Program-made: the position numbers and the translations under genes
NCBI RefSeq assembly: GCF_030684315.1
Contig: NC_081391.1
Location: 20,916,629 to 20,980,628, forward strand
Source: Stegostoma tigrinum
Lineage: Eukaryota
Direction of reading: 5' to 3'
Length of the DNA stretch: 64,000 bases
Shown: positions 1-64,000 of the stretch, in pieces
Position numbering within the stretch: the stretch's first letter is position 1
Layout of the letters: every line of letters begins with the position of its first letter
Notes under the pieces: model-generated
The model's database searches: none
What the model was told of the DNA's origin: nothing
Seen by the model: only the letters and a program-made list of their open reading frames with translations

Positions 1-702
1 TGATGTTGCCCTGTATCACTTTGCTGAATTCTTCAAGGAGCAGTCCTGAGGAGCAGGAACATGCTGACAAACTGATGGTGTTCCAGAATAAACGTGGAGG
101 CCAGGTCCTCCTGCAGGACGTAAAGGTTGGGGCTTAGTGTCTCTCTTGCAAGACTTGCAGTAATAGTGCTAGATATGGATTTGAAGCAATTAACTCTTTT
201 GGTCTGGTAACATTATATGCCACATGAATTCACTTTTTTAATGGATAAACTGACTTAAGTGTCTGCCTCTATCCTCCCTGTCCTCCAGAAGCCAGAGCAG
301 GATGAGTGGGCAATGGTCTGGAGGCAATGCAGAGAGCTCTGCAGATGGAGAAGGATGTGAACCAGAGTCTGCTGGATCTGCACAAACTCGCCTCTGGCCA
401 CATGGACCCTCATGTGAGTACTACACAATTTTTTTTTTTGTCTGAAGGCGATAAGGCATTTTTTCTTGAGGTTAAATGTACCTATTCACCTAGCACTGAG
501 CATTTGAAGTACAAAGCTGCTTTCTGCTCAGTGAGCTACTCATTTCTTTATCCAGCTGTGTGACTTCCTGGAGAGGCACTACTTGGATGAGCAAGTGAAG
601 ATGATCAAGAAGCTGGGAGATCACATCACCAACCTGAAGAGACTGGGAGCCCCTGCCAATGGCATGGGAGAGTACCTGTTTGACAGGCTCACACTCAGCT
701 GA
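1..702 (+). pseudogene. Ferritin H/M-type pseudogene, copy 1 (exon 1 lies outside the window)
   Basis: Exon 2 <1-125, exon 3 289-413, exon 4 556-702, with GT-AG introns. A 2-nt deletion (cagtcc[ca]tgag) creates an in-frame TGA at 47-49, and a 1-nt deletion occurs in exon 3 (gagtgggcaat vs gagtggggcaat, ~308). Exon 4 translates [48 protein letters not shown]. Confidence 0.9.
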
Positions 703-2789
703 GAGGGGTCAATAATGTGTATGTTGTACATAGTGACATAATGCTAGTAACTTGGTTGTGCTCTGAGCAAATCAAAATAGTGTTCACCATGGAACTGAGT
801 ACTTTGTATAATTTCACAGCTGTTTCTGGCTCTTGGTATTTCTATTTGACTTCTGATCATGAAATCTTCTTCTGTTATTTCTGATTAACCTTTAATTCAA
901 TGCCTGCCCCAGTAGTTTGCTCCTCTCTTCTCTGTAGCAATTCAGTAGGCAACTGATGTAGTGGAAATCCCACAAGTGTTCTTTTTTTTTTCTGGGGCTA
1001 GTAAACAGTTTTGGACTGACAAACACTTTTTCAGGGCCAAGGGCCAGCTTCTAGTCATACCTTGACTGAGACCAGAACCCTGCCTAAACATTTGGAACTG
1101 AACTGGAGCCCTGCCCTGTGCCATGTTCAGTCTCACTGGAATAAGCAGCTGCAGGAAATCTCAGGTTTGGCTGCACCTGTGGAAAGAACTGTTCAGTCCC
1201 AGGACCAGAGACACATCATTTCCTGCCAGATGTTGCCACACCTGTGAGTTTTTCTACCAATTTGTTCTACCACCTCAAATCTAATGATTTGAGCATACAT
1301 TCACGTTTCAAAACAGGAATATAAAGTGAAAAAATTTAGCATTGAAGATGCACTGATCTTTTTATCCTCTTTAGATAAGCAATTGCTACAAATGGTTTCT
1401 CTCCCATTTCCTTTGCTCCTTTATCACTGGTGGAAGGAATGAGTCTAATGGCTGCCTGTAAGAGAATGGGAAAACTTGTTTTCGCTTGTCTCAGGCTCTC
1501 GCTCATGTGCTCTCCAGAGAGAATGACCTGTTAGTCAAGGCAGCAGTGCCCACCTTCGAGCTCATGTGGCACAACTTCGATCAGTGCTCTGCAACATAAA
1601 GATGACAAATGCCAAGTACACCAGGTGAAAATAAAGCTAGAACCCAAATACCACTAGGAGAAATCAGCAGTTCCAATATTTAGCTCTATTTTCAATGAAA
1701 TCAGCTCTCCTGCTCTCAAGTGCCCTGCATGTGACAACACATGCACTGCTCTGTGCCTGCCTAGTTCCTGATGCTCGGGTGGATGTCTGAGCTGACAGCA
1801 TTTATTATCAATTTCAAACTGCCCCAAGGCCAGGTCAGAGGTGCACACATCGCTAAGGTTACAGGGTCATATGCAGGCCAGGCTTGGTAAGGATGGGTTT
1901 TTGACACTGAATTGAATGCTCCTCATTACCTTCTTAATTCCAGAGCGGTGTCAGATAGAATCAGGAGATCAGGCCAACACTCCAGAAACTTGATGGCCTC
2001 CAGCTCCAAGCAATGACTGTCAAGCTCATTATTAGGTTCTTATTGCCAGAAGAGAGTTGTTCAGACAGAATCAGGTCAACGGGTATCGGTCCAACACTCC
2101 AGGAGCTTAAGAGCCTCCAGCTCAGAGCAGCCGCGAGATTCATTCTTTCCACCACTGACACACAGGGACTACAATATGTGCCGTCTAACAAATGCTGTAG
2201 AAATCCACCAAATCTTCTTAGACAACACCTTCCAAAGCCCCCATTCATCCAGAGTTGGTGGATCAAAATGCTGGAATTCCCTCACCAGGCGCATTGGGGA
2301 TCTGCCTCCACTAAATCAACAACAGTTCAAGAAGGCAAGCCGCCACATTCGCTAATCTAATGTTAGGCCTGATCTCAGACCAGTTCAAATATTTCAGCGT
2401 GGAGGTTCTTTTGTTCTAGTTCAAACATATCTGGAGTGAACAGTTCTAGCAGGTTGGACCCAAAGATGGTTATGCACAGAATTTCTGGAATGCCCCCGGA
2501 CAGAAAGTTAATGGGTTATTATGATAATACTTTGCCCAAGCCCTTCTGTGTAGAAATGTAAAGGATGTCTGTGCTTCAAGTTTCAAAGTGGATTAATGCA
2601 TTTGACAGGGTAGAGAGAGAGATCCTGCTTCTTTTCAATCCTCATCTAGGACTAAGAGTGGGAAATATGATTACATTCCTCGCATTAGAAGTAAATCATC
2701 TATGATAAAGCCAAAAACAGCTTCGTTTTGGAGAGGATAATATGTGAATCAGCAGATACATTTTTATTTGGTAAGATTTGATGTTGCCA

Positions 2790-62554: not shown

Positions 62555-64000
62555 GTGGGGTCAATAATATCTTTGTTTATGGTGACATAATCCAAATAAT
62601 TTGGTTGTGCTCTGCGCAAATTAAAGTAGTGTTCACCATGGAACTGAGTACTTTGCATAATTTCACAGCTGCTTCTGGCTCTTGGTATTGCTGTTTGACA
62701 CCTGATCATTAAATCCTCCTGTTATTTCTGATTAACCTTTGATTCAATGCCTGCCCCAGTAGTTTGCTCTCTTTTTTTCTCTTGTCTATAGGAATTAAGT
62801 GGGCAATCCTTGTAGTGGAAATTCAGTGTTGAGTCTGTGGTGTTTTTGGGTTTGGCTTGTAAGCAGTGTTGTACTGACAATCAATTTTTCAGGACCAGCT
62901 TCTAGTCAATACCCTGATTGAGCAGCCCCCTGTCTAAATGTTTTTCTGAGCTAGAGCCCTTCCCTGTGCTATGTTTAGGTCTCGTTGAGATAAGCAGCTA
63001 CCGGAAATCTCTGGTATGGCAGCATCTGTGCAGGGGAAACTGTTCTCGGTCCCAGGACCTGAGACACATCATCTTTTGACAAGTGTTGCCAGACCGGTGA
63101 GGGTTTTCCAGCAATTTGTTCTTTCACTTGGAATTTAATATTTGTGCGTACATTCACTCTTTCAAACAGGAATACCAAGTAAAACATTTAGCATCAAAGA
63201 TGCACTGCTTTTTTCAGTTTTTTTTGATAAGCAATTGCTCCCACAAGTAGGGAATCGGTTTCTCTCTCCTTTTCCCCTTTCTGCCTTAGCAGTGGTGGAA
63301 GGACTTTGTCCAGTGGCTGCATCTTGGAGAATGGCAAAATCAGCTTTCCCTTGTATCAGTCTCTCTCGTCATTTAGAATGACCTGTATTTGGAAATGCAG
63401 CAGTGCGCACCTTGGAGCCCATGTGGTAGAACTTCTAGCATTGCTCTGCAATGCAGAGATAACAAATGCCAAGGGCACATGGTGAAAATAAAGCTGGAAC
63501 CAAACTACCACTGGCAGAAAACAGCAGTTCAGATTTTTACCTTATTTACAATGAAATCAGCGCTCCTGCAGCTGACTGCACATGTGCTGCACTATGGCTG
63601 CCTAATTTGTGATGGTCTCCTTTTATTAAAAGGATAGTGTTTATTCTCCATGTCTAATTGTCCCAAGGCCAGGCCAGAGTCAAACAATTACTGTAGTTGT
63701 AGGGTCATATGCAGGCCAGACCAGTTAAGGATGGGTTTTTGGCACTTAAGCTAATGATTAGCATTAAGTTAAATCCAGAGTGTTGTTAGGAGAACAGTCC
63801 AACACTCCAGAAACTTGATTGGCTTCCATCTCCAAGCAGCCACTGGATTGCCTCTTTCCAACACTAATGTGTGGGGACTGCAATGGGTATCACCTCCCAA
63901 TTCCTATACAAATCCACCAAAGCATTCTAAAGCCCCTATTACTTGCCATGGGAGAAGGATATCTGATACATGGGAACATCACGCTCTGTAATTTCTACAC

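What the first reader, a model, noticed from the sequence alone, without database searches (positions are those of the whole stretch)
1..64000. Large tandem array of intron-containing ferritin genes undergoing birth-and-death evolution
Seen: ten head-to-tail four-exon ferritin genes in 64 kb, six intact and four disabled by different lesions; copy 1 is cut by the left edge and spacer sequence runs off the right edge. Known: most vertebrates have only a few ferritin subunit genes, and the many mammalian extra copies are mainly processed retrocopies. Inference: this is a lineage-specific, intron-retaining amplification in a probable shark, suggesting dosage or tissue-specific (oocyte, erythroid or immune) use of a distinct ferritin class.
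Basis: partly seen in the sequence, partly recalled or inferred. Interest (0 to 1): 0.75.

Follow-up and report, generated by a model that had tools for sequence, protein, structure and literature searches.

The report
Shark-wide amplified ovary-type ferritin array
This carpet-shark DNA holds ten head-to-tail ferritin genes, six with intact reading frames, from a gene cluster already reported in other sharks; they show no iron-sensing RNA switch before the start codon and carry changes at the surface that marks ferritin for recycling, so they likely mass-produce a long-lived iron store, probably for the ovary or egg.

Summary
Confirmed: ten plus-strand, four-exon ferritin genes; six open 173-codon frames, four broken. 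The proteins are closest to zebra-shark models (up to 99-100%). The amplification is not species-specific and not new: a 2024 Greenland-shark preprint reports 155-179 ancient copies, shared with the white shark and expressed in ovary (passage). What I add: (1) the copies form their own cartilaginous-fish clade, apart from FTH1; (2) no iron-responsive element between TATA box and ATG in 9 of 9 copies; (3) ferroxidase ligands are kept, but the NCOA4-contact pair A19/R23 is intact in 0 of 124 array proteins against 55 of 57 other ferritins; (4) copies are recombinant mosaics: copy 6 was born dead from copies 5 and 7, and exons 3-4 are more alike than their introns; dN/dS about 0.25; (5) sharks co-amplify a second, L-like class (E63K in 46 of 46) on the same contigs, absent from this window. 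Expression of these particular copies, the cell type and NCOA4 binding are untested. No earlier scan finding covers this.

The parts
1..702 (+). Copy 1, pseudogene, exons 2-4 only (1-125, 289-413, 556-702); short introns 2 and 3 (163, 142 nt) that align with no other copy; from exon 4 on it resembles copy 8
6842..9059 (+). Copy 2, pseudogene (TAG at codon 54); TATA at -77; exons 6919-7020, 7880-8026, 8564-8689, 8913-9059
10310..13286 (+). Copy 3, open frame but H66R at a ferroxidase ligand; exons 10384-10485, 12098-12244, 12767-12892, 13140-13286; intron type shared with copy 9
17639..20122 (+). Copy 4, intact; mosaic: 5' half like copies 2/5/10, intron 3 and 3' flank like copies 3/9; exons 17716-17817, 18915-19061, 19604-19729, 19976-20122
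24452..26800 (+). Copy 5, intact; exons 24529-24630, 25597-25743, 26314-26439, 26654-26800
   Evidence: 99.4% to database protein P0137
26223..33297 (.). Recent tandem duplication unit: 26223-31408 matches 33076-38262 (98.4%) and 31678-33297 matches 38263-39883 (98.8%); the two matches overlap at 33076-33297, which places the crossover in or just before exon 3 of copy 6
31174..33653 (+). Copy 6, pseudogene and chimera (5' part from copy 7 with its TGA at codon 76, 3' part from copy 5); exons 31248-31349, 32398-32543, 33167-33292, 33507-33653
38028..40242 (+). Copy 7, pseudogene (TGA at codon 76, 2-nt loss in exon 4, 22 private changes); exons 38102-38203, 38983-39129, 39753-39878, 40098-40242
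45866..48329 (+). Copy 8, intact frame, degenerate TATA; exons 45942-46043, 47095-47241, 47836-47961, 48183-48329
   Evidence: 99.4% to P0122
51903..54913 (+). Copy 9, intact; TATA at -55; exons 51958-52059, 53720-53866, 54392-54517, 54767-54913
60198..62554 (+). Copy 10, intact; TATA at -77, reverse CCAAT boxes at -149 and -179; exons 60275-60376, 61339-61485, 62058-62183, 62408-62554
   Evidence: 170 of 170 residues identical to P0143; splice joints seen in related contigs
28881..29959 (+). LINE reverse-transcriptase fragment in a spacer; duplicated with the unit at 35735-36761, a related piece at 42635-43746, and older pieces in most spacers
   Evidence: Pfam RVT_1, tblastn

Best explanation
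The window is a 64-kb piece of a large tandem cluster of a cartilaginous-fish-specific ferritin class, which likely serves to mass-produce a stable iron-storage ferritin in the shark ovary or egg. Shown: ten genes, six open frames under purifying selection; a TATA box 55-77 nt before the ATG with no iron-responsive element in between; a kept ferroxidase centre; Asp and Lys in place of the NCOA4-contact residues A19 and R23; copies made and reshuffled by unequal crossing-over with breakpoints at exons. Inferred: output is set by gene number and transcription rather than by IRE/IRP control; the altered cleft weakens NCOA4 binding and so slows ferritinophagy; short DNA conversion tracts keep exons 3-4 alike so that subunits stay compatible; the subunits may co-assemble with a second, catalytically disabled class amplified on the same chromosome. 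Taken from a paper on another shark: ovary-specific expression.
For: Gene models. Selection: pooled dN 0.026, dS 0.104 over 15 non-independent pairs of 6 copies; 25 of 406 nonsynonymous against 26 of 113 synonymous sites vary. Fold: model of P0122 (172 of 173 residues identical to copy 8), pLDDT 89.6, TM 0.95-0.97 to human H and frog M ferritin. Seven ferroxidase ligands (list recalled) kept in 5 of 6 intact copies and 107 of 124 array proteins. No IRE: Rfam 0 hits at gathering score in 64 kb, no IRE family among 7 weak hits at E<=10 around copies 3 and 10, no C-bulge/CAGWGH hairpin between TATA and ATG in 9 of 9 copies; two spliced contigs of relatives reach only 22 and 28 nt before the ATG. 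NCOA4 cleft: PMC11076521 (passages) shows that A19Y, N22A and R23A abolish binding; R23 is K in 116 of 124 array proteins and R in 57 of 57 others; A19 and R23 are both kept in 0 of 124 against 55 of 57; 15 of 15 further shark class members fetched later also have D19 and K23. Ovary-specific expression and 155-179 copies in Greenland shark: bioRxiv 10.1101/2024.09.09.611499 (passage). Each shark also keeps a conventional A19/R23 ferritin on the same contig, which would leave the array free to specialise.
Against: No run on record as RNA holds the window; the spliced contigs come from runs only guessed to be RNA, are 90-97% alike (relatives' paralogues), have no tissue label, and one spliced joint also occurs at depth 6 in the DNA-like run, so a retrocopy is possible. 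The transcription start is inferred from the TATA box, and my hairpin scan had no positive control, so an upstream IRE exon is not excluded. Arg to Lys is conservative: R23L and R23I keep partial binding in cells, N22, Y30 and V111 are kept, and shark NCOA4 may have co-changed; four of seven ray members have R23 and two non-array ferritins have S there. Shark ovaries are enclosed in the lymphomyeloid epigonal organ (PMC5568229, passage), so 'ovary' need not mean oocyte. That the window belongs to the very cluster of the preprint is inferred from protein relationship, not from synteny.
Confidence: 0.5

Rival explanations
1. The array serves blood or immune cells (granulocytes and other cells of the epigonal organ) for iron withholding or protection from oxidants; the 'ovary' signal is the attached lymphomyeloid tissue.
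For: Shark ovary samples contain immune transcripts because the ovary lies in the epigonal organ (PMC5568229, passage; PMC6795676, passages). Large, fast-turning tandem families with many pseudogenes are common among immune genes (own knowledge).
Against: Intact copies are 94% alike on average and under purifying selection, which fits dosage better than diversification; the preprint calls expression ovary-specific, though I did not see which tissues it compared for this cluster.
Confidence: 0.22
2. A general antioxidant dosage effect, as proposed for the 14 tandem fthl27 copies of the hadal snailfish: more ferritin lowers reactive oxygen in many tissues.
For: PMC10746142 (passages): 14 mostly tandem copies, high expression in most tissues, lower ROS on overexpression. 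The window's proteins keep the ferroxidase centre.
Against: Tissue-restricted expression in the one shark examined; the expansion is shared by sharks of very different habitats; only AP-1-like half matches, no clear antioxidant response element, in the 300 nt before the ATG.
Confidence: 0.1
3. Copy number is largely a by-product of a recombination-prone repeat; one or a few genes matter, and exon similarity reflects recent duplication, conversion or slow synonymous change rather than selection for dosage.
For: 4 of 10 copies are dead, one was born dead; conversion from a functional donor would also give low dN/dS; rays seem to manage with one or two copies (clusters of 1-2 members); exons 3-4 differ by only 2-4 of 128-135 bases even from other organisms' contigs, so slow change at these sites is possible.
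Against: The expansion is kept in all six shark orders sampled (order names recalled) and in two protein classes; 107 of 124 proteins keep all seven ferroxidase ligands.
Confidence: 0.15
4. The copies are assembly artefacts.
For: No whole genome was held to extend the array; the DNA-like run may be the source sample.
Against: Copies differ by 1-25% with indels and private transposon pieces; similar multi-copy sets occur in independent assemblies of more than ten shark species.
Confidence: 0.02

Closest known systems
Ancient shark ferritin clusters (Greenland shark genome preprint, bioRxiv 10.1101/2024.09.09.611499; passages read; supplements not seen)
   Same: Very many full-length, clustered ferritin genes in a shark; old and shared across sharks; ovary expression reported there.
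   Different: [quoted passage not shown] In the passages read it says nothing on IRE, NCOA4 residues or recombination.
RefSeq models 'ferritin heavy chain B-like / oocyte isoform-like / middle or higher subunit-like' of Stegostoma, Rhincodon, Chiloscyllium, Hemiscyllium and other sharks
   Same: Same proteins: up to 99-100% identity; at least 25 distinct predicted class members on one 26.87-Mb Stegostoma contig (counted by hand from rows listed, a lower bound).
   Different: Automatic names that scatter one clade over five labels; several models fuse neighbouring genes (for example P0003, P0004).
Bullfrog M ferritin (PDB 1MFR, 4MJY) and other amphibian/teleost M-type chains
   Same: Best solved relatives (E 1.7e-83, about 72% identity); ferroxidase ligands plus cavity glutamates E58 and E65; short N-terminus.
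   Different: Met in place of frog D140 (human A145; M in 120 of 124, 0 of 57 others), D19, K23, S31, R103, M107; sister relation to M chains not resolved.
Hadal snailfish fthl27 tandem array (PMC10746142, passages)
   Same: Tandem ferritin amplification in a vertebrate.
   Different: 14 copies, recent, broadly expressed; the shark array is far larger and older.
Mammalian X-linked FTHL17/FTHL loci (PMC5363321, passages)
   Same: Germ-line-expressed ferritin paralogues evolving in concert by gene conversion.
   Different: Human FTHL17 has no ferroxidase activity and these loci are retro-derived (recalled); the shark genes keep introns and ferroxidase ligands.

Membership tests
Animal cytosolic ferritin subunit | Ferritin domain above curated cut-off | tested here: met
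   PF00210 135-139 bits, cut-off 24.5, for P0122 and P0143; exons 2 and 3 pass alone
Animal cytosolic ferritin subunit | Four-helix bundle plus short fifth helix | tested here: met
   Predicted model, helices 11-38, 46-72, 93-120, 124-154, 161-170; TM 0.95-0.97 to solved ferritins; a prediction from a 58-row alignment
Animal cytosolic ferritin subunit | Assembly into a 24-mer that mineralises iron | not testable with these tools
   Three-fold channel residues H119, C131, D132, E135 kept in 6 of 6; assembly not tested
FTH1 (H chain) orthologue | Ferroxidase ligands E28, Y35, E62, E63, H66, E108, Q142 (list recalled) | tested here: met
   5 of 6 intact copies, 107 of 124 array proteins
FTH1 (H chain) orthologue | Falls inside the FTH1 clade | tested here: not met
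   FTH1 rows, with chimaera and skate FTH1, form a clade (92-97) without the array; a sister position is not rejected (p-AU 0.776, and the constrained tree scored higher)
FTH1 (H chain) orthologue | NCOA4-contact residues A19, N22, R23, F82 | tested here: not met
   D19, N22, K23 (N in copy 3), L/I82; residues from PMC11076521
IRE-regulated vertebrate ferritin (H, L, M) | Iron-responsive element in the 5' UTR | tested here: not met
   0 of 9 between TATA and ATG; start site inferred, no positive control for the hairpin scan
FTL (L chain) | Disabled ferroxidase centre with Lys at position 63 | tested here: not met
   E63 in 6 of 6 window proteins; K63 in 3 of 3 L-like rows and 46 of 46 shark class II rows
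M-type (amphibian/teleost middle subunit) | Ferroxidase centre plus cavity carboxylates, and descent from the M/L locus | tested here: inconclusive
   Residue pattern fits; deep branches open in all trees; no flanking genes in the window for synteny
Shark ferritin clusters of the Greenland-shark preprint | Many clustered, mostly full-length copies shared across sharks | tested here: met
   One clade of 124 rows from 13 sharks, one ray and the window, support 100; ten 90% clusters hold 517 members (at most 40 read and 15 listed per cluster; one listed row carries a bacterial label)
Shark ferritin clusters of the Greenland-shark preprint | Same chromosomal cluster and ovary-specific expression | not testable with these tools
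   No genome held; no RNA run on record; no Greenland-shark sequence among the hits
Birth-and-death multigene family | Pseudogenes beside copies under purifying selection | tested here: met
Birth-and-death multigene family | Copies diverge independently, synonymous sites about as far as introns | tested here: not met
   Non-CpG four-fold sites differ at 3-6 of about 50 where alignable introns differ at 21-24% (P 0.001-0.04 in 6 of 6 non-independent pairs); the deficit lies in exons 3-4, exons 1-2 fit the intron level

The most novel reading that the evidence does not exclude
Sharks invented their own two-subunit egg ferritin: a ferroxidase-active class (this window) and a catalytically disabled, L-like class (E63K, Q142E), both amplified to dozens or hundreds of copies on one small chromosome, both without R23, co-assembling into an IRE-independent, ferritinophagy-resistant iron depot that provisions very large yolky eggs and long gestation. 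This would be an independent origin of the H/L division of labour and the first vertebrate case of iron storage set by massive gene dosage.
Probability: 0.25. Interest if true: 0.75.

Novelty: new variant of a known kind. Interest (0 to 1): 0.5.

Why it matters
The amplification itself is on record, but only as one paragraph that treats the genes as human-like FTH1 and FTL. If the class escapes both main controls of vertebrate ferritin (IRE/IRP at translation, NCOA4 at degradation), it is a natural experiment in iron storage and gives clear biochemical tests. It also cautions against reading high ferritin copy number in one shark as a species-specific adaptation, since a carpet shark has the same array, and it shows that automatic names hide two old shark classes.

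Tried and rejected
Own genome: none held, so the array could not be extended or its flanking genes seen. RNA: no RNA holder listed; this is no evidence either way. Summed contig depth over exon bins in the DNA-like run (684-1178 against about 25-80 for single intron contigs) hints at many copies, but the tool states it is no copy number, so I do not use it. Single-sequence fold failed (pLDDT 43); repeated with an alignment. The first segment-identity table used a lenient aligner whose shuffle baseline was 70%; I replaced it by local alignments. The global intron distances (0.34-0.57) are inflated by unalignable stretches; the local figure is 0.21-0.24. cDNA-mediated conversion: considered because homogenisation is 3'-biased (18 of 270 against 31 of 249 variable sites, P 0.035 for six intact copies, P 0.21 for nine copies); disfavoured because the last 80 or so bases of intron 2 are also shared by nine copies and no intron is lost. 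My first idea that the preprint's 'FTL' and 'FTH1' counts were the same loci counted twice was weakened when the second class appeared. Six IRE-like hairpins in the whole window lie in spacers, the nearest 1270 nt before an ATG; rejected. Deep placement: the careful tree did not finish (one search gave the quick tree); neither array+FTH1 (p-AU 0.776) nor class II+L (p-AU 0.337) is rejected. Tandem Repeats Finder: five short local repeats only. Pfam gave nothing for four of six spacer frames. No complex was predicted: no shark NCOA4 sequence was at hand. Scan look-ups returned nothing on this array. Literature searches showed no paper on IRE loss, the NCOA4 cleft or two classes in shark ferritins; the library lacks most subscription journals, and a further Greenland-shark study linking gene repertoire to ferroptosis, cited in PMC13701976, was not read.
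Full report
OBSERVATION. A self-comparison shows the window to be a patchwork of 1-7 kb direct repeats. Using the four exons of one copy as probes gives 39 exons in ten plus-strand genes. Built by coordinates, copies 3, 4, 5, 8, 9 and 10 give open frames of 173 codons; copy 1 (cut by the left edge) has a 2-nt and a 1-nt loss, copy 2 a TAG at codon 54, copies 6 and 7 the same TGA at codon 76 plus a frameshift each. Copy 3 has Arg for a ferroxidase His and copy 8 a degenerate TATA box. 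Spacers carry LINE reverse-transcriptase fragments.

WHAT THE GENES ARE. Exon 2 of copy 4 finds carpet-shark ferritin models first. Copies 5, 8 and 10 are 99.4, 99.4 and 100% identical to Stegostoma tigrinum models; copies 3, 4 and 9 have best matches of 94-98% among the 231 proteins then fetched. Ten 90%-identity clusters hold 517 members, another 180; only up to 15 rows a cluster are listed, nearly all from sharks and mostly on one contig per species. In a tree of 162 rows (10 mispredicted or partial rows dropped; only proteins of 165-200 residues used), 118 shark and ray proteins and the six window proteins form one clade with support 100, and inside it they group by lineage: Heptranchias 12 rows (92), Pristiophorus 27 (82), carpet sharks with the window 64 (97). 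With FTH1 orthologues added, the array clade, FTH1 and a single-copy elasmobranch ferritin that lies on the same contig as the array are three separate clades (100, 92, 97; for the contigs). The deep branching is open: a tree forcing array plus FTH1 together is not rejected and even scored higher than the quick free tree. A chimaera protein (P0580) is sister to the class (91-93), and rays have members in clusters of only one or two, degenerate at the ferroxidase centre in skates. So the class looks as old as cartilaginous fishes and the large amplification is a shark trait, as far as these lower-bound searches show.

PRIOR ART. [quoted passage not shown] The finding is therefore a further instance of a reported expansion; that it is the same cluster is inferred. 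The preprint's statement of at least 90% amino acids shared with human orthologues does not fit these proteins, which are 66-68% identical to macaque FTH1. Other precedents: 14 tandem fthl27 copies in hadal snailfish (PMC10746142, passages) and concerted evolution of X-linked FTHL loci (PMC5363321, passages).

SELECTION AND MODE OF EVOLUTION. Among intact copies pooled dN/dS is 0.25; by variable sites 25 of 406 nonsynonymous against 26 of 113 synonymous, P 4e-6. Copies are mosaics. Intron 3 falls into three sets with no local alignment between them (copies 3/4/9; copies 2/5/6/7/8/10; copy 1), and intron 2 of copy 1 aligns with none. Copy 4 has the 5' half of one type and the 3' half of another; copy 6 matches copy 7 at 98.8% up to exon 3 and copy 5 at 98.4% from there on, so it arose by unequal crossing-over in 33076-33297 and inherited copy 7's stop codon. 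Other match ends fall at exon 4 (copy 1) and at the ATG (copies 3 and 9). Exons 3-4 are more alike than introns allow: copies 10 and 3 differ at 2 of 60 synonymous sites there while their alignable introns differ at 22% (P 5e-5), whereas exons 1-2 fit the intron level (P 0.07-0.55 in the five pairs between the two main types); without CpG sites all six tested pairs still fall below the intron level (P 0.001-0.04). Exon 3 of pseudogene copy 1, between two unalignable introns, differs from copy 10 at 0 of 15 non-CpG four-fold sites. The carpet-shark residue R136 (58 of 58 carpet-shark proteins, 0 of 60 other array proteins) is in all ten copies whatever their intron type. The pairs are not independent, and relatives' contigs also differ little in exons 3-4 (2-4 of 128-135 bases), so slow synonymous change remains a rival. 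Best reading: birth and death by unequal crossing-over plus exon-scale DNA conversion.

REGULATION. A TATA box lies 55-77 nt before the ATG (TATAAAT in 8 of 9 copies), with two reverse CCAAT boxes upstream in 7 of 9, which predicts a 5' UTR of about 26-48 nt. Vertebrate H and L ferritin mRNAs carry an IRE there (PMC11719527, passages). None is found: Rfam gives 0 hits at gathering score and no IRE family at E<=10 near copies 3 and 10, and my hairpin scan finds none between TATA and ATG in 9 of 9 copies (no positive control). In runs guessed to be RNA, from two other organism labels, one 693-nt and one 697-nt contig are spliced across all three introns at the predicted joints and begin 28 and 22 nt before the ATG; a third run gives a partial contig across intron 2. 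These are relatives' paralogues, contigs cannot show a start, and one joint also appears at low depth in the DNA-like run.

PROTEIN. A model of P0122 has the ferritin fold (pLDDT 89.6; TM 0.95-0.97). The seven ferroxidase ligands (recalled list) are kept in 107 of 124 array proteins. Class-specific residues, human numbering with Met as 1: K23 (116 of 124; 0 of 57 others), S31, Q91, R103, M107, M145 and D19 (105 of 124). PMC11076521 (passages) places A19, N22 and R23 in the NCOA4 cleft: A19Y, N22A and R23A abolish binding, R23L and R23I keep part of it in cells. A19 and R23 are both intact in 0 of 124 array proteins and 55 of 57 other ferritins, including all ten single-copy elasmobranch genes; 15 of 15 shark members fetched afterwards have D19 and K23, but 4 of 7 ray members have R23. 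Weaker NCOA4 binding is a prediction, not a result.

A SECOND CLASS. The last protein search showed further shark clusters of 45, 76, 43 and 19 members on the same contigs. They form a clade (99-100) sister to the window's class with moderate support (86), are 74% identical to it, and of 46 full-length rows (63 listed) all have K for the ferroxidase ligand E63, 33 have E142, 44 have T30 and 43 have K23; three L-like rows (labelled by recalled motifs) also have K63. No such gene is in the window. It does not group with mammalian L, but that grouping is not rejected (p-AU 0.337). It may be what the preprint counted as FTL.

MECHANISM AND RIVALS. I commit to a dosage-driven, IRE-independent, probably recycling-resistant storage ferritin for ovary or egg (0.5). 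Rivals: epigonal or immune use (0.22), since the shark ovary is enclosed in that organ (PMC5568229); recombination-driven copy number with few functional genes (0.15); general antioxidant dosage (0.1); artefact (0.02).

VERDICT. Real, already noticed as an expansion, but with uncharacterised derived features that my nine literature searches on ferritin arrays and IRE did not show in print. New variant of a known kind; interest 0.5.

Noticed in passing
Proteins P0597, P0585, P0592, P0596, P0584, P0233 and their clusters (not in the window): A second amplified shark ferritin class on the same contigs, with E63K in 46 of 46 full-length rows and K23 in 43; a likely L-like partner of the window's class.
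   Followed up: partly
Proteins P0112, P0234, P0237, P0238, P0239, P0242-P0245, P0487: A conserved, apparently single-copy elasmobranch ferritin with A19/R23 and a full ferroxidase centre on the same contig as the array; its own clade, distinct from FTH1.
   Followed up: partly
Proteins P0576, P0581, P0671 (skates), P0589, P0672 (stingrays), P0580 (chimaera): Class I members in rays and chimaera occur in clusters of 1-2; skate members have lost ferroxidase ligands (D62, Q66).
   Followed up: partly
window 56350-56721, - strand: Frame that looks like a GIY-YIG endonuclease fragment of a Penelope-like element (recalled resemblance; no Pfam hit), in a region of very high repeat depth found only once in the window.
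   Followed up: partly
window 5492-6191, 16284-16984, 23097-23797, 44493-45196, 58843-59522: A 700-nt spacer segment 92-96% alike upstream of copies 2, 4, 5, 8 and 10, with chance-length open frames and no Pfam hit; possible enhancer or old repeat.
   Followed up: no
window, codon 141 of every copy: Met at the position of frog M D140 / human A145, beside the ferroxidase centre, in 120 of 124 array proteins and 0 of 57 others; may change iron entry to the site.
   Followed up: no
window, codon 6 and stop codon of the copies: Cys for the otherwise constant Arg10 in all intact copies (79 of 118 other array proteins), and a C-terminus three residues shorter than in many relatives, with Leu for H174 at the four-fold channel.
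   Followed up: no
Proteins P0003, P0004, P0032, P0232, P0233 and others of 260-720 residues: Database models that fuse exons of neighbouring copies; probably annotation artefacts of the tandem array.
   Followed up: no
Proteins P0111, P0119, P0120, P0164, P0274, P0482: Animal-type ferritins filed under bacterial names; probably contamination in those records.
   Followed up: no
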